Below, piece after piece: positions 2,321 to 17,043 of a stretch of 33,477 nt of DNA. The translations under genes and the position numbers were made by a program. Within the stretch, counting starts at the first letter, position 1. Every line of letters starts with the position of its first letter. The notes below the pieces were generated by a model. The model was not told where the DNA came from. It did no database searches and was given only the letters and a program-made list of their open reading frames with translations. Source of the stretch: a virus (Duplodnaviria; Heunggongvirae; Uroviricota; Caudoviricetes); IMG/VR virus record IMGVR_UViG_3300029193_000102, positions 1 through 33,477 of that record; one strand, written 5' to 3'.

Positions 2321-4762
2321 TTAAAAATCAGCCTGACTCGGGATCAGTTTTTGCCAGATAGCTGAAACGTATTTTGCCTGGTAACGAGCGTCATCAAGTG
2401 CATTATGGCGCTCACCTTCGAATGGAATAGCCGTTCTGGCATCGAAGTCTATGGCTTTCCCCAGCTCAACGATTGTGCGTACATCGCGATCGTTGTAGTA
2501 ACGCCACGGGCAGGGGATCCCCTGCCGTTCGTATGAACGGCGCAAAATCGTGTTGTCGAAGTTGGCTCCATTTCCCCAGACCTGAACAAAAAATTCACCG
2601 GAGTTTTCGTCGATAAATTCCCGCAATTGTAACAGTGCATCATCTAACGGGATTTCATCGGTCATAATGGCAGATTGCGCTTCGCGTGATTGCTTAAGCC
2701 ACCATTTAATGGTGTCCCGATCAATGACTCCGCCAGCAGTTTCCAGATCGATAGTCTTACTAAATTCCGGTCCCATATCTCCGGTTTGCGGATCGAAAAA
2801 TATTGCACCTATTGAGATGATCGGGGCATCAGGATTTTTTCCCATGGTTTCAAGGTCGATCATTAGATGGTCACACGTCCTGCTGGTGGATGTGATTTCG
2901 TGATGACCGTTCACCTTAATTGAGTGATCTGCCGTCTCGCCAGTTTTATTATCGCTGGCGTGATGCTGATTGCCGCCAGGGTTCTCCTTGTGTGGATGTT
3001 CAGCGCCTTCCATTTCCTCCGGATCATTTTCCTGAACTTCAACCTGATTCTCTTCATCGAATGTTTCCTGGTATGTTGCGTCGCCCATCACCGCGCCACA
3101 ATCAGGGCAGTTGCCGCCACCGCTCTGACCGCAGGCGGTGCAGACTTTTTCCGGTTCCTGTTGCGCTACTGGTTCGGATTGTTTCGTTTCTGGCTCGTTT
3201 TGTAACGCATTTGGGCTGTTTTGTTCCGCTTTTTGGTCGTTCCGTTCCGATTCATGCTGGTTCTGGTTCACAGAATCGCGAGTCTGGATCCCCTTGACCC
3301 ATTTCGGATCATTAGGGTCGCTAATCCCCTCAACAAATTCACCACGCGATACAGCAAGTAACTTATCGGCGTCAGGCTGGCTGATATTGGCTGCCTGCAT
3401 AATTTTGTTTACTTCGTCAGCGGTGACTTTTACTTGGTTAGCGGAACTCACCTGCGACTGAGCATCCAGCGACTGCGCGTTTTGGCCATGTTCAGTTGTA
3501 TCCGGTTCCATTGTTTCAGTTGTTGCCTGTTCACCTGCCATTGCGTCAGATGGTTGTGGTTTTTCTTCTTCTGTTTCACGCTCAGTAACCACCTCGCGGT
3601 TAATTTCTTCCAGGATATCTTTTTCCGGCGTATGCCGGGCAGCTGTGAGAGTTTCCTTGCTGGGGTTCTCGTGATCAGTTTCCGTCAAATAGGCGTTGAT
3701 ATACCCCTGAAGGCGTCCCGGGTAGTGATAAAATTCAGGGTGTGCGCTTCGGATAAGTGCAAAAATAGCGGCGCGGGAATAGTCCAGAATACCCGGGGTT
3801 GCACGAAGTGCTGCGGACCATTCTTTGAACGGACTTTCTTTGTTCAGGACTACTTCTTTTGCGCGACGATAAACGCTGCCCGGAATTTCATAAATATTAA
3901 AATCCATCGGAAGTGTGGATGCTGCAATCTCCACATCCAGTGTGTCGAGGGTGTGTACTAAATTCGGATTGCGATCGGTTTTGTTCCCACCGCCAGCATT
4001 AGCACCGAAAGCCGTGCGGGTGATGCGTGAAACACGATTTCCTTTCATCCACTCTTTTGTCAGCAGACCCCGATCAGTGTAGTCAGCGTCCAGGTATGCT
4101 TCGAAAAAAGCAGTTATTAGTCCCAGGTCTGAATTACCAGGATTAGGGAAAACTTTGTCAGTGTCACGAACCAGTTTGTGGAGGTCGCGAATCTCCAGCG
4201 AGTCGAGCAGACTGGTTTTATGCGAAATAGCCAGGGCAGTAACAGCCGGTAGTTCTTCAGCCCGTGCAATGTGTAATGCCTGGAGTTCGTCGCGTGAAAC
4301 GTGCGTTACTGGTTTTTCGCTGCCGTGTTGAGCAAGCCAACGAATGGGCAGTTCCTGACCGGAGACAGGCAGAAGCATGCTCTCCTCAATCTCAGTCATG
4401 TCTTCGCCGTTGATGTTGGTATTGTCAGTGCTGGCTGGTTTGTCCCGAACAGAGGGGGAAGGGCCGATAAATGTCATTGTGATGCCATCTTTCCCGCCTT
4501 TTTCATAGCGGTTGCAGAATTCAGTATCAAACACGCCTTCTGGCGGAAGGTCGTCAACAACGGGCAAATTGACGCGGACGGGTTTTTTAAAGTCGTCTTC
4601 ATCATAATCGTTGTCATCCATTGCGGTAATGCAGCGGGAGATTGCAACAGATAATTTTTTTGCTGTAGTCCAGTAAAAACCACCTTTAATTCCTAGGCGT
4701 TTTCTTACTTTGTCATTTTTTGCTTCGCAATATAGTGCAAATTCTTCTTTATCAGTGCTCAT
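2321..4762 (-). CDS. Large exonuclease-like protein: C-terminal DEDDh-type 3'-5' exonuclease domain, central Cys4 zinc ribbon, acidic linker, uncharacterised N-terminal half (possibly the intact form of Qin YdfE)
   Basis: 813 aa; C-terminal motifs [10 protein letters not shown] (Exo I-like) and [13 protein letters not shown] (Exo III H-x4-D-like); [16 protein letters not shown] zinc ribbon; Qin-like gene order int - ydfE - ydfD - dicB. Confidence 0.7.
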
Positions 4763-4855: not shown

Positions 4856-5047
4856 TTAAAGACCTGCCGGGATTTCGTTATTATCCTGGTGAATAACTTT
4901 ATCGACCGGATAACAGTTGCCTGGAATTTTCTGTTCGGTTGCTGCTGCCATACATTCCTGCATTGTTCTGTGAACACTGACTGCAATATCAACTGGCTCT
5001 CCGGAAACAAGAAAAACCGTCAGAATAAGTGCAAATACTGGATTCAT
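4856..5047 (-). CDS. ydfD: YdfD-like small protein with N-terminal hydrophobic segment (Qin lysis-associated peptide)
   Basis: 63 aa from ATG 5045..5047 with AGGA upstream; MNPVFALILTVFLVSGEP... signal/TM-like N-terminus; directly downstream of dicB as in Qin. Confidence 0.55.
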   Translation of the reverse strand: MNPVFALILTVFLVSGEPVDIAVSVHRTMQECMAAATEQKIPGNCYPVDKVIHQDNNEIPAGL

Positions 5048-5232
5048 TGTGCACATCCTTTTGGCATCAGACGTAAACGGGCCAGCATTGAGACAATGCA
5101 TACTTTATTTAATAACTCCCGTTCGTGTTTTCTTTTGTTAATGGCATCTTCAGTAAATACAGGATTACTGATAGTGACGCCAATTTCAAAACAACCTTCA
5201 GACGTATTAACGTTTGGTAATAACGTTTTCAT
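5044..5232 (-). CDS. dicB: DicB cell-division inhibitor
   Basis: 62 aa from ATG 5230..5232 with GAGGA 8 nt upstream; MKTLLPNVNTSEGCFEIGVTISNPVFTEDAINKRK... matches recalled E. coli K-12 DicB in length and sequence. Confidence 0.7.
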   Translation of the reverse strand: MKTLLPNVNTSEGCFEIGVTISNPVFTEDAINKRKHERELLNKVCIVSMLARLRLMPKGCAQ

Positions 5233-5401
5233 TATCGCGTCCTCAACAATGAATTTTGTGATGCAGTGCCTGGTGCCTCCAGGTGACGTTAACCAGTTAA
5301 CAATTAACGCCGGATACAGAGAATCCACCCATAACACTGTTTTTGGTTTTAACTGTTCCGCGTGCGCTCAGCCGCATTCACCACATCACAAAATTCACTT
5401 T

Positions 5402-5459
5402 AAAAAGGGCGGCAGAGCAGTCACGGAGTAAAACTGATACCGCCAAACGTCACCAGAAA
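5402..5459 (-). ncRNA. dicF: DicF small RNA (53 nt at 5407..5459) with 3' stem-loop and U-tract
   Basis: Minus-strand sequence TTTCTGGTGACGTTTGGCGGTATCAGTTTTACTCCGTGACTGCTCTGCCGCCC followed by TTTTT matches recalled DicF; lies upstream of dicB as in the Qin dicB operon. Confidence 0.7.
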
Positions 5460-5799
5460 ATTGATAACAGAGGGCGTTGCAGCGGGGTTGTCACTTAAGC
5501 GTATGGTCAACCTGACAACCCGGTGTCCTCAACGGGGAAGGAATAACCCCGCCATACTTACCGCCGCGCCATTTCGCGGGTTGCCACAACCGGAAGCGCA
5601 CGGTCGACGAAAATTTAACGACAGGCTATCTATGAACCAGCTACCTCGCCGTGTGCTTTCGCGTTATGCTCTGACTTTTCAGAGAAATATCCTTTCAGTA
5701 AACTGTCAGTGCCGGATGTTCACCCGTGTCCGGCGCACGCACTCCACTTCACCCGTGGAGAACTCCTTAATTACCAACCTTAGCTTCGTTGGTTAGCTA

Positions 5800-6018
5800 T
5801 TAACGCGGGTATGTAATCATTCTGGCAATGCTTAATGCCGCTGCTTTTTCCAGATTGGTGATATCCTGCTCCAGAGCGGACAGATTTTCAGCCTGCTTAG
5901 CCCTGGCTTCATTGGCCCATTTCAGATCCTGCGCTGCATTAATTTTCTGGCGCATCCACTCATAAAGTTCATCATCGGTATAGTCTGGCGCGATGATGAC
6001 GGGTTCTCGTTTCTGCAT
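5800..6018 (-). CDS. Hypothetical 72-aa protein (position and size equivalent to Qin YdfC)
   Basis: ATG 6016..6018 with AAGGAG 6 nt upstream; predicted coiled-coil-rich small protein; same strand as the dicB module. Confidence 0.5.
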   Translation of the reverse strand: MQKREPVIIAPDYTDDELYEWMRQKINAAQDLKWANEARAKQAENLSALEQDITNLEKAAALSIARMITYPR

Positions 6019-6089
6019 GTCGGCTCCTTGTGGTTAGCGTTGCCTGCTTTTAACCACGTCAGGCGAGGTGGTATCCTCTGAGGGGTCTG

Positions 6090-6446
6090 TTACTCGAGAG
6101 GAAATTGGTTATGAGTACAATCAAGTTTTCTTGCCCAGAATGTGGTGGCGAAGTCTTTGACACATCCTTTAAGCCGCAGGGCTCTGACAGTTTCGCGGGA
6201 GCCATCTGCAAAAATTGTGGTCACCTTGTAACTGAAGATGAGTCCTCGCAGTTCGATGATGAAATCGTTGACAATATCTTCGGTGCACTCACCAGAGACT
6301 TTCTGAAGTAAAGGCGCATACCGCTTAGTTACCGCTCTGATAATTCTTACCTGTCCGGCAATGGCGCTGATGTCAATATAAAGCGCCATTGCTGCTTCTT
6401 TGCCGATCCCGGGATGCCTTCCATTCTGATGTTTGACTTCGCCCAC
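6090..6446 (-). CDS. Hypothetical 118-aa protein (GTG start); conflicts with the antisense zinc-ribbon ORF at 6111..6311
   Basis: AGAGGA 7 nt upstream of GTG 6444..6446; same strand as the surrounding early-left operon; no recognisable motif. Confidence 0.3.
   Translation of the reverse strand: MGEVKHQNGRHPGIGKEAAMALYIDISAIAGQVRIIRAVTKRYAPLLQKVSGECTEDIVNDFIIELRGLIFSYKVTTIFADGSRETVRALRLKGCVKDFATTFWARKLDCTHNQFPLE
6111..6311 (+). CDS. Hypothetical 66-aa zinc-ribbon protein (CPECGG...CKNCGH); antisense to the 6090..6446 ORF
   Basis: ATG 6111 with GAGAGGAAA upstream; two CxxC pairs ~22 residues apart; opposite strand to neighbouring genes. Confidence 0.35.
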   Translation: MSTIKFSCPECGGEVFDTSFKPQGSDSFAGAICKNCGHLVTEDESSQFDDEIVDNIFGALTRDFLK

Positions 6447-6636: not shown

Positions 6637-6673
6637 TACCCATAGGTATTTAAAAAGTAAATACCTATGGGTA
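6637..6673. promoter_or_regulatory. 16-bp perfect inverted repeat TACCCATAGGTATTTA / TAAATACCTATGGGTA (5-bp spacer); candidate operator upstream of the dicB-type operon
   Basis: Arms at 6637..6652 and 6658..6673; lies in the 270-bp non-coding gap between the repressor gene stop and the first early-left ORF. Confidence 0.35.
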
Positions 6674-6715: not shown

Positions 6716-7135
6716 CTATGATGCGTTTTGTGCTTTCTTTTTACGGATTTCTTCGTAGATCATATTGTAATACTGTTTTTTCTCTTCAAGAGTTTTTAAT
6801 AATTTATCCGCTTCACTTTCTGGCAGTTCGTCTAAGAGATCTAAAAAAATACGTTGTCGTGGCGTTAGAACCCTTGTTTCATAACTGGAGGCTGTGTTCG
6901 TTGATGATGAAACGATACCATCCATCCATCCCCGGGGTAACCCAAAGGACTCTTCGATAATCTCCACCATATCATCAGCGATCCGTTTTTTTCCCTTTTT
7001 CCCCTCTGGGTACAACATTCTTGATACATAAGAAGGCTCGCGCCCGATCTTTCTGGCCACGTTAACCGCTTTACCATCGCATTTCTCATCACGAATTTTG
7101 ATGAGTTGCTGTCGTCTAAATTCATATTTGTCCAT
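6716..7135 (-). CDS. Prophage repressor, HTH (DicA/RacR-like immunity repressor), possibly translated leaderless
   Basis: 139 aa; HTH-like segment GKAVNVARKIGREPSYVSRML; C-terminal FLDLLDELPESEAD resembles recalled DicA; divergent from a Cro-like gene; no SD before the ATG but a TATTAT -10 (7142..7147) sits just upstream. Confidence 0.7.
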   Translation of the reverse strand: MDKYEFRRQQLIKIRDEKCDGKAVNVARKIGREPSYVSRMLYPEGKKGKKRIADDMVEIIEESFGLPRGWMDGIVSSSTNTASSYETRVLTPRQRIFLDLLDELPESEADKLLKTLEEKKQYYNMIYEEIRKKKAQNAS

Positions 7136-13206: not shown

Positions 13207-13465
13207 ATACAGCGAACGCCATTGGTTTAGTTGGATATTTACTGTGCCGGACAAAAACGGTTTGCGGGGAAATCTTAGTTAAGTAGAATAACTGCGGGTG
13301 CTTGAGGCTATCTGTCTCAGGCATGAACACCAAAAGGCAGATAGAGAAAAGCCCCAGTTAACATTACGCGTCCGGCAAGACGCTTAACATTAATCTGAGG
13401 CTCAATCTATGAACGGCAAATCTAGGTTAGCCTCTTACGTGCCGAAAGGCAAGGAGAAGCAGGCT

Positions 13466-13621
13466 ATGAAGCAGCAAAAGGCGATGTTAGTCGCCCTGAT
13501 CGTCATCTGTATTACCGTCATTGTGACGGCACTGGTAACGAGGAAAGACCTCTGCGAGGTACGAATCCGAACCGGCCAGACGGAGGTCACTGTCTTCACA
13601 GCTTACGAACCTGAGGAGTAA
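13466..13621 (+). CDS. hok: Hok/Gef-family type I toxin (HokD/RelF-like)
   Basis: 51 aa MKQQKAMLVALIVICITVIVTALVTRKDLCEVRIRTGQTEVTVFTAYEPEE, near-identical to recalled HokD; AAGGAGAAG SD 7 nt upstream. Confidence 0.8.
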   Translation: MKQQKAMLVALIVICITVIVTALVTRKDLCEVRIRTGQTEVTVFTAYEPEE

Positions 13622-16486: not shown

Positions 16487-16804
16487 GTGGTAAATTGGCG
16501 GCTGGTGGGTGTGGTGGTTGTTGCTTTCCCGTTGCTGAAAAAGAAAACGCCAGACTGTTAGCCGGGTATCAGTTATCTGGAGAAATTTTTAAATACCTCA
16601 CAATTCAGGCGGTTGACTGTTGTCTGGTTTGCGGGGAGTTTGTTAAAAGAAACTGGCATGGTGAATCCCCCTGTGCGGAGGGGCAATCAGCAACTGGTGT
16701 TTTGTCACCGACCCTTATCCTTTCTGTGCGGGTTCAGGTGCTGATACTGAACTCACCGGGAGGCACCCGGCATCATGTGCATGATGATACAGATACGCGG
16801 CTTT

Positions 16805-16830
16805 AGCCCCTCTCCGGAGGGGCTTTCTTG
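16805..16830 (+). terminator. Rho-independent terminator (plus strand)
   Basis: AGCCCCTC-TCCG-GAGGGGCT followed by TTCTTG. Confidence 0.45.
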
Positions 16831-16835
16831 TGGGC

Positions 16836-16861
16836 AAAAAAAAGCCCGAGTGGGTTCGGGC
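16836..16861 (-). terminator. Rho-independent terminator (minus strand), convergent with the previous one
   Basis: A8 run then GCCCGA-GTGGGT-TCGGGC on the plus strand, i.e. hairpin plus U-tract on the minus strand. Confidence 0.4.
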
Positions 16862-17043
16862 AACAGCATGAGATATACATTTTTATAATCGAATGGATTT
16901 TAACCAGAATTCATAAGGCTGCGCAACTGCGCGGTCTTTTTCGAATTGCGGGCTGTCGTCTCTCTTCTGCCATTGTCCTGTAACTTCCGGACTTCAGCCT
17001 GCTCCTTATCTGACTCACAATATTATCCCGGCCGGGAGGATTC

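What the first reader, a model, noticed from the sequence alone, without database searches (positions are those of the whole stretch)
5460..5799. 340-bp ORF-free stretch upstream of DicF with repeats and hairpins
No ORF of 60 aa or more with a ribosome-binding site lies between the YdfC-like gene and DicF, yet the stretch is GC-rich and structured. It has a 10-bp direct repeat TTCACCCGTG at 5719..5728 and 5748..5757, a 9-bp stem GGGTTGTCA/TGACAACCC at 5485..5521 (partly under DicF), and a GCCGGA/TCCGGC hairpin at 5711..5734. It is presumably part of the operon transcript, so it could hold processing sites, a second small RNA or tiny ORFs.
Basis: seen in the sequence. Interest (0 to 1): 0.45.

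Follow-up and report, generated by a model that had tools for sequence, protein, structure and literature searches.

The report
Structured leader of the DicF precursor

Summary
The operon runs on the minus strand: YdfC 5800-6018, spacer 5459-5799, DicF 5407-5458, DicB. However, the stretch is not GC-rich (52.6% against 51.2% for the window) and nothing lies under DicF.

The spacer is 97-98% identical to the E. coli K-12 Qin ydfC-dicF spacer. There, Northern blots and primer extension showed a 190-nt "long DicF" whose 5' end is made by RNase III, and a 53-nt DicF made by RNase E.

I find that the 5' body of that 190-nt RNA (5476-5590) is a conserved four-helix domain with a pseudoknot. Across 69 distinct sequences, 96% of pair cells are paired, against 54% or less in slid controls, and 12 pairs show compensatory changes. 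It occurs in lambdoid prophages of several Enterobacterales genera and in phage P1, and an intrinsic terminator follows in 23 of 24 representatives. It has no Rfam family.

Just upstream, a 20-bp duplex (5646-5668 with 5585-5607) is conserved in structure but not in sequence. It is the likely RNase III substrate.

Frame-breaking indels rule out coding across the domain. The domain's function is unknown. My best guess is a maturation and stability scaffold. Autonomous RNA and put-like antiterminator remain open.

The parts
5407..5458 (-). DicF small RNA: 5' seed plus intrinsic terminator hairpin. Outside the finding, but it defines the finding's 3' boundary.
   Evidence: Rfam RF00039, 76.7 bits, E 1.9e-15, full length. 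Hairpin followed by UUUUU.
5459..5475 (-). Single-stranded, A/U-rich linker (GCCCUCUGUUAUCAAUU) holding the RNase E cut that creates the DicF 5' end.
   Evidence: RNase E dependence of the 53-nt species is reported in PMC10448788. Positions 5460-5471 are invariant in 31 full-length relatives. The exact cut was not tested here.
5476..5590 (-). Conserved structured RNA domain, the 5' body of the 190-nt long DicF.
- P1: 5583-5590 with 5476-5483.
- P2: 5575-5579 with 5564-5568.
- P3 base: 5560-5562 with 5522-5524.
- P3 variable hairpin: 5547-5551 with 5533-5537, with a C/U-rich loop.
- Pseudoknot: 5552-5557 (GUAUGG) with 5501-5506 (CCAUAC).
   Evidence: Covariance model R1 scores 157 bits, and there is a single copy in the window. 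Across 69 distinct sequences, 96.4% of cells are paired against 33-54% when slid, and 12 pairs have changes on both sides. RNAalifold independently recovers P2, P3 and P4 but not P1. There are 39 invariant columns among 25 diverse representatives. No Rfam family matches.
5585..5668 (-). Long imperfect duplex H-III, the probable RNase III substrate. The 5' strand 5646-5668 pairs with the 3' strand 5585-5607, and the apex is 5608-5645. It takes in GUUGUG (5585-5590), which is also the 5' strand of P1.
   Evidence: RNAduplex gives 20 bp and -25.9 kcal/mol in the window (z -1.0 against shuffled 3' strands). An equivalent duplex of -26 to -34 kcal/mol exists with different sequence in 12 of 13 lambdoid-type relatives tested (z -1.8 to -5.6). 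Serratia symbiotica (-15.5), phage P1 and pPE4 lack a convincing one. The apex is the most variable segment.
5591..5596 (-). Inferred position of the RNase III cut that makes the 5' end of the 190-nt species (GUGCGC/UUCCG).
   Evidence: Counted back 190 nt from the DicF 3' end at 5407, allowing 0-5 U of tail. The RNase III dependence and the primer extension are in PMC10448788. The exact base is not readable from the stored figure.
5669..5684 (-). Small hairpin CUCUGA-AAAG-UCAGAG just 5' of H-III.
   Evidence: Present in the MFE fold. Relatives carry CCCUGA/UCAGGG, a U:A to C:G change, but also mismatched variants. Weak support.
5711..5734 (-). Hairpin GCCGGA-CACGGGUGAACA-UCCGGC. Its loop carries repeat copy 5719-5728.
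   Evidence: Seen in the sequence. Conserved in E. coli copies, with mismatches and no compensatory change. Function unknown.
5742..5760 (-). Hairpin CUCCAC-GGGUGAA-GUGGAG, carrying repeat copy 5748-5757.
   Evidence: Present in the MFE fold. Lost where the upstream gene is replaced, as in L051 and L156. Function unknown.
5773..5795 (-). Hairpin directly after the ydfC stop codon (AACCAAC-GAAGCUAAG-GUUGGUU).
   Evidence: MFE fold only. The K-12 variant weakens it. Weak support.

Best explanation
The stretch is the untranslated spacer between ydfC and dicF of a Qin-type dicBF operon, the PL-like early-left operon of a lambdoid prophage. It is transcribed on the minus strand and it works as RNA.

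From 5' to 3' it holds:
- a few poorly supported hairpins (5669-5795);
- a 20-bp duplex, H-III, that RNase III cuts at about 5591-5596;
- a 115-nt conserved four-helix domain closed by helix P1 and locked by a pseudoknot (5476-5590);
- an A/U-rich linker that RNase E cuts to free the 53-nt DicF.

Shown by published experiments on the near-identical K-12 locus:
- a single transcript;
- a 190-nt species dependent on RNase III;
- a 53-nt species dependent on RNase E;
- both species accumulate in stationary phase;

Shown here:
- the fold of the 5' domain and its covariation;
- its distribution across genera and in phage P1;
- its fixed position before an intrinsic terminator;
- the structural conservation of H-III;
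- the absence of coding potential across the domain.

Inferred:
- Before cleavage, H-III holds GUUGUG, which is the 5' strand of P1.
- The RNase III cut removes the competing strand, so P1 can close.
- Closure brings the new 5'-monophosphate end next to the RNase E site about 20 nt past P1.
- The domain thus acts as a compact, nuclease-resistant scaffold that sets the timing and precision of DicF release and stabilises the long form.
For: Identity with K-12:
- DicF lies at 5407-5458 on the minus strand.
- The region is 97-98% identical to the K-12-type locus, with nothing annotated between ydfC and dicB.

Published processing. Hfq enrichment upstream of dicF.

Geometry: 190 - 53 = 137 nt puts the RNase III end 1-6 nt 5' of P1.

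Fold:
- Searches support the fold.
- G:U pairs work only on the minus strand. For example, column pair 102/112 is U:G in 66 of 69 sequences and column pair 100/114 is G:U in 48.
- The pseudoknot is paired in 100% of cells, with U:A changed to C:G in the P1-type sequences.

H-III is conserved as structure.

Context:
- A terminator was found downstream in 23 of 24 representatives, clear (-12.7 to -22.5 kcal/mol) in 19, with at least 5 different seed linkers.
- In phage P1 the domain sits directly downstream of the C1-controlled Pban promoter. A primary 5' end there would stand where RNase III makes the end in lambdoid phages.

Non-coding.
Against: - A plain scaffold would not need 39 invariant positions in loops and junctions across genera. 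That degree of conservation suggests a specific partner.
- P1 is the least supported helix: only 2 pairs with compensatory change, it is not found by RNAalifold, and it is absent from the L062/L165 deletion variants.
- Single-sequence folding does not favour the proposed fold. The MFE of the 195-nt RNA keeps P4 and the P3 hairpin but pairs the conserved 5' part with the DicF 3' half.
- In the window itself the H-III duplex is no better than shuffled controls (z -1.0). The case for it rests on the relatives.
- The refolding step and the 5'-end effect on RNase E are pure inference.
- The exact RNase III position is estimated from a gel size.
Confidence: 0.6

Rival explanations
1. The conserved domain is a functional RNA in its own right. 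RNase III hairpins on both sides excise it from the operon, and it binds a specific protein, RNA or small molecule. DicF-type seeds would be interchangeable add-ons between it and the terminator.
For: - There are 39 invariant positions, mostly unpaired or at junctions, while the stems covary.
- In cdtI-type phages the linker to the terminator is only about 12 nt, leaving no DicF-like seed, so the domain plus terminator is the whole RNA.
- P3 hairpin type and seed type assort independently.
- The P3 loop stays C/U-rich (UCCUU or CUCC) in most variants.
- A second long inverted repeat follows the terminator, at window 5384-5400 with 5248-5263 and in cdtI/F1055-type loci.
- The 190-nt form is stable in stationary phase.
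- An Hfq-enriched interval lies upstream of dicF.
Against: - No partner or target has been identified.
- There is no match to any Rfam family.
- RNase E removes DicF from the domain, and only the DicF-containing species have been probed, so the fate of the free 137-nt fragment is unknown.
Confidence: 0.22
2. The domain is a cis-acting processive antiterminator RNA that works like HK022 put or the Bacillus EAR element. It would modify RNA polymerase so that the early-left operon reads through the DicF-type terminator and later ones in phages that have no N protein.
For: - It lies directly upstream of the first intrinsic terminator of the operon.
- In cdtI, 2H10 and Stx2c phages it lies in a leader of about 350 nt between cI and the first PL gene, with no N-like ORF.
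- mEp460, which has an int/xis/exo left arm and a DicA-type repressor, has no annotated N upstream.
- In P1 it precedes a terminator, then tRNAs and ban, all downstream of Pban.
- None of 141 loci with an intact domain has a lambda-type or 933W-type N. The two N-positive loci keep only remnants of the domain.
Against: - It does not resemble put: 115 nt with a four-way junction, against about 70 nt with two stems.
- Model R1 finds nothing in the whole HK022 genome.
- There is no second copy on the PR side of the window.
- In K-12 the transcript ending at the DicF terminator is the main species, and the read-through form accumulates only in the rne-ts strain.
- In Qin-type operons the domain lies far from the promoter, after three genes.
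- The N survey covered only two N families and a sample chosen for having the domain.
Confidence: 0.12
3. The domain is a riboswitch-like attenuator. A ligand-binding fold would decide whether the DicF terminator forms, setting the ratio of DicF to downstream dicB expression.
For: It has an aptamer-like architecture: a closing helix, a multi-helix junction, a pseudoknot and an invariant core, followed by an intrinsic terminator.
Against: - I found no conserved alternative pairing between the domain and the 5' half of the terminator.
- Linkers and terminators differ completely between variants.
- No riboswitch family matches at E up to 10.
- The GGCGGUA similarity to the terminator's 5' strand is absent in phage P1.
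Confidence: 0.04
4. The stretch encodes one or more small proteins: the + strand 111-aa ORF, the minus-strand 36-aa GTG ORF 5491-5601, or the 23-aa TTG ORF 5706-5777.
For: - An open + strand frame spans the whole spacer.
- Gene callers annotate + strand 'hypothetical proteins' over the element in several phages.
- The 36-aa ORF matches phrog_8854 (E 7e-12).
Against: - Length differences between invariant flanks are not multiples of 3 in 24 of 49 variants.
- Single-base indels occur at 5534-5538.
- There is no third-position excess (17/23/22).
- There is no ATG start or ribosome-binding site.
- Covarying stems with G:U pairs point to RNA.
- phrog_8854 is most simply a family of ORF calls laid over a conserved RNA.
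- The 23-aa ORF lies outside the domain and is argued against only by its start codon and missing ribosome-binding site.
Confidence: 0.02

Closest known systems
The 190-nt long DicF species of the E. coli K-12 Qin dicBF operon (Faubladier 1990; Ragunathan et al. 2023, PMC10448788)
   Same: This is the same locus at 97-98% identity, and the conserved domain scores the same 157 bits in both. It shares the RNase III-made 5' end, the RNase E-made 53-nt product and the terminator 3' end.
   Different: The accessible papers treat the upstream 137 nt only as precursor sequence. I found no description of its fold, its pseudoknot, its conservation outside E. coli or its presence in P1. Rfam DicF covers 52 nt only.
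Phage P1 'dicF-like region' misc_feature (NC_005856 68791-68892)
   Same: It overlaps the P1 copy of the domain (P4, linker, terminator), which scores 95.5 bits with R1.
   Different: Rfam DicF finds nothing there at E 0.1 or below. The similarity is to the upstream domain, not to DicF proper. P1 has no H-III duplex, and the domain sits directly downstream of Pban.
HK022 put RNAs (putL, putR)
   Same: Both are cis RNAs in the early operons of a lambdoid phage without N, upstream of terminators.
   Different: put is about 70 nt with two stems, has an RNA triplex, and binds the beta' zinc-binding domain. This domain has a four-way junction with a pseudoknot. It has no match in HK022 and only one copy per phage.
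3'-UTR-derived or intra-operonic sRNAs matured by RNase E (CpxQ, SroC, MicL), as reviewed in PMC9438474
   Same: The sRNA is released from an mRNA by RNase E just upstream of a terminator hairpin, and DicF is listed among them.
   Different: As far as I know, those precursors have simple stem-loops guiding cleavage. They do not have an RNase III-excised, sequence-invariant multi-helix domain shared across genera.
EAR (eps-associated RNA) of Bacillus, a processive antiterminator (recalled from my own knowledge, not checked here)
   Same: It is a structured RNA of about 120 nt with a pseudoknot, inside an operon, upstream of terminators.
   Different: It comes from Firmicutes and a non-phage context.

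Membership tests
DicF RNA (Rfam RF00039) | Match to the 52-nt covariance model at or above 48 bits | tested here: not met
   The model hits 5407-5458 only (76.7 bits). Nothing is found within 5460-5799 at E up to 10. The finding lies next to DicF, not in it.
190-nt long DicF precursor (K-12 Qin) | Same sequence as the K-12 ydfC-dicF spacer shown in Fig. S1 of PMC10448788 | tested here: met
   Identity is 97.3% to a K-12-type chromosome over 5380-5830. The conserved domain scores the same 157 bits in both. The Fig. S1 text reads the same sequence, allowing for OCR errors.
190-nt long DicF precursor (K-12 Qin) | 5' end generated by RNase III within a long duplex | tested here: inconclusive
   A 20-bp duplex covers the expected cut site and is structurally conserved in relatives, although in the window it is no better than shuffles (z -1.0). 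Cleavage itself cannot be tested with these tools.
190-nt long DicF precursor (K-12 Qin) | RNase E cleavage releases the 53-nt DicF | not testable with these tools
   There is an A/U-rich single-stranded linker at 5459-5475. The dependence on RNase E is known only from the literature.
HK022 put antiterminator RNA | About 70 nt, two stem-loops, homologous to putL/putR | tested here: not met
   The architecture differs. R1 finds no hit in the complete HK022 genome at E up to 10.
HK022 put antiterminator RNA | Lies in an early operon of a phage lacking N, upstream of terminators | tested here: met
   Searches show the context. None of 141 domain-bearing loci has lambda-type or 933W-type N. Only two N families were searched.
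HK022 put antiterminator RNA | Suppresses termination by binding RNA polymerase beta' zinc-binding domain | not testable with these tools
   This needs transcription assays.
Riboswitch (aptamer plus expression platform) | Conserved mutually exclusive terminator/antiterminator pairing | tested here: not met
   Linkers and terminators are unrelated between variants. By inspection I found no conserved complement to the 5' half of the terminator.
Riboswitch (aptamer plus expression platform) | Match to a known aptamer class | tested here: not met
   cmscan of 5300-6100 against 4227 Rfam families at E up to 10 returns only DicF and two chance hits.
Lambda-type nut site (boxA plus boxB with N) | A single-stranded boxA, a boxB hairpin and an N gene | tested here: not met
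   The boxA-like UGCUCU upstream of the domain in cdtI/F1055 types is one strand of the H-III duplex. No N was found.
tRNA or tRNA-like gene | Cloverleaf recognised by tRNA models | tested here: not met
   The Rfam tRNA model has no hit in 5300-6100. ARAGORN finds nothing in eight related loci.
Small protein gene | Reading frame preserved among relatives | tested here: not met
   for the ORFs that cross the conserved domain. The 23-aa ORF at 5706-5777 was not tested this way.

The most novel reading that the evidence does not exclude
The conserved domain is a new class of phage RNA that acts on the transcription machinery. It would be a put- or EAR-like processive antiterminator, letting N-less lambdoid prophages and the P1 ban operon read through the DicF-type terminator and express their early-left genes.
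Probability: 0.12. Interest if true: 0.8.

Novelty: new member of a known kind. Interest (0 to 1): 0.42.

Why it matters
DicF is one of the oldest and best-studied bacterial small RNAs. It controls cell division (ftsZ), metabolism and, in EHEC, virulence.

If the 5' body of its precursor is a conserved tertiary-structured domain, then DicF biogenesis is not simple trimming of a leader. The region queried (5380-5830) is found in about 4,300 of 5,426 complete E. coli genomes, with a median of 2 copies per genome that has it. The domain alone (5472-5595) matched about 500 plasmid records, most of them 85-120-kb non-mobilizable plasmids. It also occurs in several other genera.

The domain gives a concrete handle for mutagenesis (helices P1-P4 and the pseudoknot). 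It suggests that many 'DicF-like' alleles with different seeds share one maturation module. It also corrects two annotations: the P1 'dicF-like region' and phrog_8854.

If instead the domain has its own activity, such as antitermination or binding a partner, it would explain how N-less lambdoid prophages express their left operons.

Tried and rejected
- **BoxA/nut idea.** The UGCUCU motif upstream of the domain looked like boxA. I rejected this because it is one strand of the H-III duplex and no N is present.
- **tRNA-like idea.** The four-way junction has a 7-8-bp closing stem. There is no tRNA model hit and no T-loop or CCA features.
- **put homology.** No hit in HK022.
- **Known ribozyme or riboswitch.** No Rfam hit at E up to 10. 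The DicF 5' end is RNase E-dependent, so self-cleavage is unnecessary.
- **Auto-inhibition of the DicF seed by the variable P3 hairpin.** P3 type and seed type assort independently.
- **Antiterminator pairing of GGCGGUA with the terminator's 3' strand.** The MFE suggests it, but it is not conserved in P1 and is kinetically implausible.
- **Alternative pairing of UGGCAACCCG (5577-5586) with the P4 5' strand.** It is present in E. coli, cdtI and Izhakiella types but absent in P1 and pPE4. It is recorded as unexplained, not adopted.
- **Coding.** Rejected for the domain.
- **Internal promoter.** None is predicted on the minus strand of the spacer, and none was found experimentally.
- **Literature dead ends.** Faubladier & Bouche 1994, Murashko & Lin-Chao 2017 and Melson & Kendall 2019 are not held. 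The Pas sRNA and HnrS papers are unrelated. A search on whether Stx2c phages lack N returned nothing usable.
- **Distant homologues.** The genome contigs pattern scan returned mostly chance hits outside Enterobacterales, so more distant relatives, if any, were not reached.

Full report
**Orientation and observation**

Rfam places DicF at 5407-5458 on the minus strand (76.7 bits). The ORF list and Pfam give these neighbours:
- YdfC at 5800-6018, minus strand;
- DicB at 5044-5232, minus strand (PF05358, E 5e-40);
- a DUF1482 protein, and then an 813-aa exonuclease-like ORF.

The finding is therefore the spacer between ydfC and dicF, read as the reverse complement.

Two details are wrong. The stretch is not GC-rich (52.6% against 51.2% for the window), and no part of it lies under DicF.

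Thermodynamic folding alone is unremarkable. The z-score is 0.06 for 5459-5600 and -2.3 for 5400-5805. The 10-mer repeat is not enriched in the window when one mismatch is allowed (5 matches against 2.7 expected).

**What is already known**

The region 5380-5830 matches 4331 of 5426 complete E. coli genomes, with a median of 2 and up to 8 places per genome that has it. It is 97.3% identical to a K-12-type chromosome. RefSeq annotates nothing there between ydfC and dicB.

For that locus, Ragunathan et al. 2023 (PMC10448788), confirming Faubladier 1990, report the following:
- One polycistronic transcript from dicBp, with no internal promoter.
- A 190-nt DicF species that disappears in an rnc mutant and accumulates in rne-ts.
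- A 53-nt DicF that needs RNase E.
- Both species accumulate in stationary phase.

Reviews add a 72-nt form made by RNase III downstream of DicF. Bilusic et al. [quoted passage not shown]

**A separately conserved block**

A sensitive search of phage records showed that window 5468-5590 is conserved on its own at 78-89% identity. It occurs in phages that share nothing else with the spacer: cdtI, Stx2c phages, 2H10, Salmonella F1055, and P1, P7 and SJ46.

In P1 the match overlaps the annotated 'dicF-like region', directly downstream of the C1-controlled Pban promoter. Rfam DicF finds nothing there.

Two pattern scans extended the family. They recovered 75 distinct sequences, including Citrobacter, Trabulsiella, Serratia symbiotica, Erwinia tracheiphila, Izhakiella, E. 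albertii and Shigella. A plasmid search with the domain alone (5472-5595) found 510 records. Most of these are 85-120-kb non-mobilizable plasmids, which by size and mobility look P1-like; that typing was not checked.

**The fold**

An alignment of 25 diverse representatives has 39 invariant columns. I proposed this structure, in window coordinates on the minus strand:

| Helix | 5' strand | 3' strand | Note |
|---|---|---|---|
| P1 | 5583-5590 | 5476-5483 | closing helix |
| P2 | 5575-5579 | 5564-5568 | |
| P3 base | 5560-5562 | 5522-5524 | |
| P3 hairpin | 5547-5551 | 5533-5537 | variable, C/U-rich loop |
| P4 extension | 5510-5512 | 5498-5500 | |
| Pseudoknot | 5552-5557 (GUAUGG) | 5501-5506 (CCAUAC) | |

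Tests of the structure:
- On the MAFFT alignment, 93.3% of pair cells are paired, against 33-52% when the 3' partners are slid. Eleven pairs have changes on both sides.
- I built covariance model R1 and re-aligned 72 hits, 69 of them distinct. On that alignment 96.4% of cells are paired against 33-54% when slid, 12 pairs have compensatory changes, and no shuffle reaches the observed values. This alignment was fitted to the model, so it leans towards the structure.
- P4 has 6 covarying pairs. Izhakiella, for example, has GGGUAACCA/UGGUUACCC.
- The P3 hairpin is replaced by unrelated stems with indels.
- The pseudoknot is 100% paired and changes from U:A to C:G in the P1-type sequences.
- Many G:U pairs exist only in the minus-strand sense, so the structure belongs to the transcript.
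- RNAalifold on its own recovers P2, P3 and P4 but not P1. P1 is the weakest helix.

R1 finds a single copy in the window (157 bits) and none in the HK022 genome. No Rfam family matches at E up to 10.

**Not coding**

Between invariant flanks, 24 of 49 distinct variants differ from the window by a length that is not a multiple of 3. One-base indels sit at 5534-5538. Variable columns of the + strand 111-aa ORF fall 17/23/22 on codon positions 1/2/3.

The phrog_8854 match of the minus-strand 36-aa ORF is best read as ORF calls over a conserved RNA. The same holds for the 'hypothetical proteins' annotated across the element in several phages.

**The RNase III duplex**

The 24 nt that end with GUUGUG (5585-5608) pair with 5646-5668 in a 20-bp imperfect duplex of -25.9 kcal/mol.
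- Twelve of 13 lambdoid-type relatives tested have an equivalent duplex of -26 to -34 kcal/mol. It is built from quite different sequences, for example GAUGAGAGCA/UGCUCUCUUC in F1055, Erwinia and Izhakiella.
- Its outer end is CA(C/U)AAC/GUUGUG in all of these, and its apex runs from 22 to 128 nt.
- Against shuffled 3' strands the relatives score z -1.8 to -5.6. The window's own duplex scores only z -1.0, because an A replaces the usual G and creates a mismatch.
- Serratia symbiotica (-15.5), P1 and pPE4 lack a convincing duplex.

Counting 190 nt back from the DicF 3' end puts the RNase III cut at about 5591-5596. That is inside this duplex and 1-6 nt before P1.

GUUGUG thus has two exclusive partners: the upstream strand before cleavage, and the P1 3' strand after it. 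The refolding this implies, and the resulting closeness of the new 5'-monophosphate to the RNase E site in the linker (5459-5475), are my inferences.

In P1 no such duplex exists. The domain sits directly downstream of Pban, so a primary 5' end would replace the processed one.

**Context**

A terminator hairpin followed by a U-run was found downstream in 23 of 24 representatives.
- It is clear (-12.7 to -22.5 kcal/mol) in 19.
- It is weak or degenerate in the Erwinia, Izhakiella and Shigella copies, and the automatic call missed the obvious one in L008.
- The script found none in Trabulsiella, although a long hairpin with a U-run can be seen by eye.

The linkers come in at least five unrelated types, which amount to allelic DicF-like seeds. 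P3 type and seed type assort independently. A second long inverted repeat follows the terminator. In the window it is 5384-5400 with 5248-5263, just before the dicB start. This matches the published downstream RNase III site.

In cdtI, 2H10 and Stx2c phages the unit lies in the leader between cI and the first PL gene, with no N-like ORF. mEp460 also has no annotated N. None of 141 domain-bearing loci has a lambda-type or 933W-type N by tblastn. The two N-positive loci keep only remnants of the domain.

**Function**

The identity of the stretch, its processing and its fold are well supported. What the domain does is not. I commit to a maturation and stability scaffold for DicF as the most economical reading.

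The invariant loops argue for a specific partner. Its position in front of the first terminator of N-less early operons keeps a put-like antiterminator alive. A classical riboswitch is unlikely, because no conserved alternative pairing exists.

**The rest of the spacer (5669-5799)**

This part holds four small hairpins. Two of them display the repeated CACGGGUGAA. They are conserved only within E. coli copies, with mismatches and almost no compensatory change, and they are lost where the upstream gene differs. I assign them no function.

**Novelty**

The locus and its processing are known. In Rfam 15 and in the papers I could search, I found no description of these points:
- the conserved pseudoknotted domain;
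- its spread to P1 and to several genera;
- the structurally conserved RNase III duplex;
- the modular layout of domain, variable seed and terminator.

Faubladier & Bouche 1994, which compared dicF-like prophage sequences, is not held and might contain part of this.

Noticed in passing
window 5384-5400 with 5248-5263 (minus strand): A 16-nt inverted repeat (AAGUGAAUUUUGUGAUG ... CAUCACAAAAUUCAUU) encloses about 120 nt between the DicF terminator and the dicB start at 5232. It fits the published RNase III site that gives the 72-nt DicF. Analogous long hairpins follow the terminator in cdtI-type and F1055-type loci.
   Followed up: partly
loci L008, L009, L026, L062, L095, L002, L005 (about 10-70 nt downstream of the domain): At least five unrelated linker or 'seed' sequences precede the terminator after the same upstream domain. 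These look like allelic DicF-like sRNAs, several of which Rfam DicF scores poorly or not at all.
   Followed up: partly
L005 about 2640-2740, L181 about 4430-4520, L188 about 2270-2360 (apex of the upstream duplex): There are two T-arm-like hairpins (CUGG-UUCGAUU-CCAG, and GUCCG-UUCAAUU-CGGAC followed by ACCGGCA). They resemble tRNA 3' halves, but ARAGORN calls no tRNA.
   Followed up: partly
L181 4713-4823, L005 about 2440-2310, L188: In Erwinia, Izhakiella and F1055 types the terminator hairpin carries AGGAG plus AUG or GUG in its loop. This opens a short ORF (36 aa in L181) whose conserved part, FTQQ.RASP.DGLITQSTR, coincides with the next long RNA hairpin. Whether it is coding or RNA is unresolved.
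   Followed up: partly
window 6090-6446 (-) and 6105-6311 (+): Two overlapping antisense ORFs both have family matches. The minus-strand ORF matches phrog_21318 (E 8e-66, full length). The plus-strand 68-aa ORF has a CxxC...CxxC zinc-ribbon motif and weak Pfam and PHROG hits. Which one is real is unclear. They replace ydfA/ydfB of K-12.
   Followed up: partly
window 6041-6076 (minus strand): The leader motif ACCACCUCGCCUGACGUGGUUAAAAGCAGGCA lies upstream of ydfC. In loci lacking ydfC (L017, L028, L069) it abuts the RNase III duplex directly. Elsewhere it follows operator-like TTGTTGGGGA repeats. It is probably the 5' end of the PL-type transcript.
   Followed up: no
window 5577-5586 against 5513-5522: UGGCAACCCG (the end of P1 and start of P2) is complementary to the 5' strand of P4. 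It changes with it in cdtI types (C to U paired with G to A) and remains compatible in Izhakiella. It is absent in P1 and pPE4. This may be an alternative conformer.
   Followed up: partly
window 5562-5578 and 5647-5663; loci L062, L165: A 17-nt direct repeat (CGCGAAAUGGCGCGGCG against CGCGAAAGCACACGGCG) lies between P2 and the 5' strand of the duplex. The Shigella-type variants L062 and L165 look like deletions between related repeats, which removed the 5' strand of P1. L165 also has a decayed terminator.
   Followed up: partly
L004 (PP818812, 'Actinobacillus phage vB_Apl-pPE4') 2440-2720: The record carries an E. coli-type DicA, domain, DicF-like and Kil region, with a tandem duplication of the DicF-like unit. 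The host assignment looks doubtful. Aeromonas phage AP1 (MT713136) likewise holds a 90-nt segment 97.8% identical to the window, covering DicF and its flanks (window 5380-5469).
   Followed up: no
window 6637-6673: A perfect 16-bp hairpin with U-runs on both strands forms a bidirectional terminator between the DicA-like repressor gene (6716-7135) and the rest of the left arm.
   Followed up: no
window 16627-16891, 13296-13471, 892-978: Rfam also finds STnc100, AsxR, a sok antitoxin RNA and a tRNA. The window is therefore an EHEC-type lambdoid prophage rich in small RNAs.
   Followed up: no
L004 2244-2428, L006/L007 2332-2539, L001 1135-1254: There are sub-threshold STnc100-like matches (28-39 bits) just downstream of the DicF-like unit, in the kil leader, and in the P1 ban operon.
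   Followed up: no
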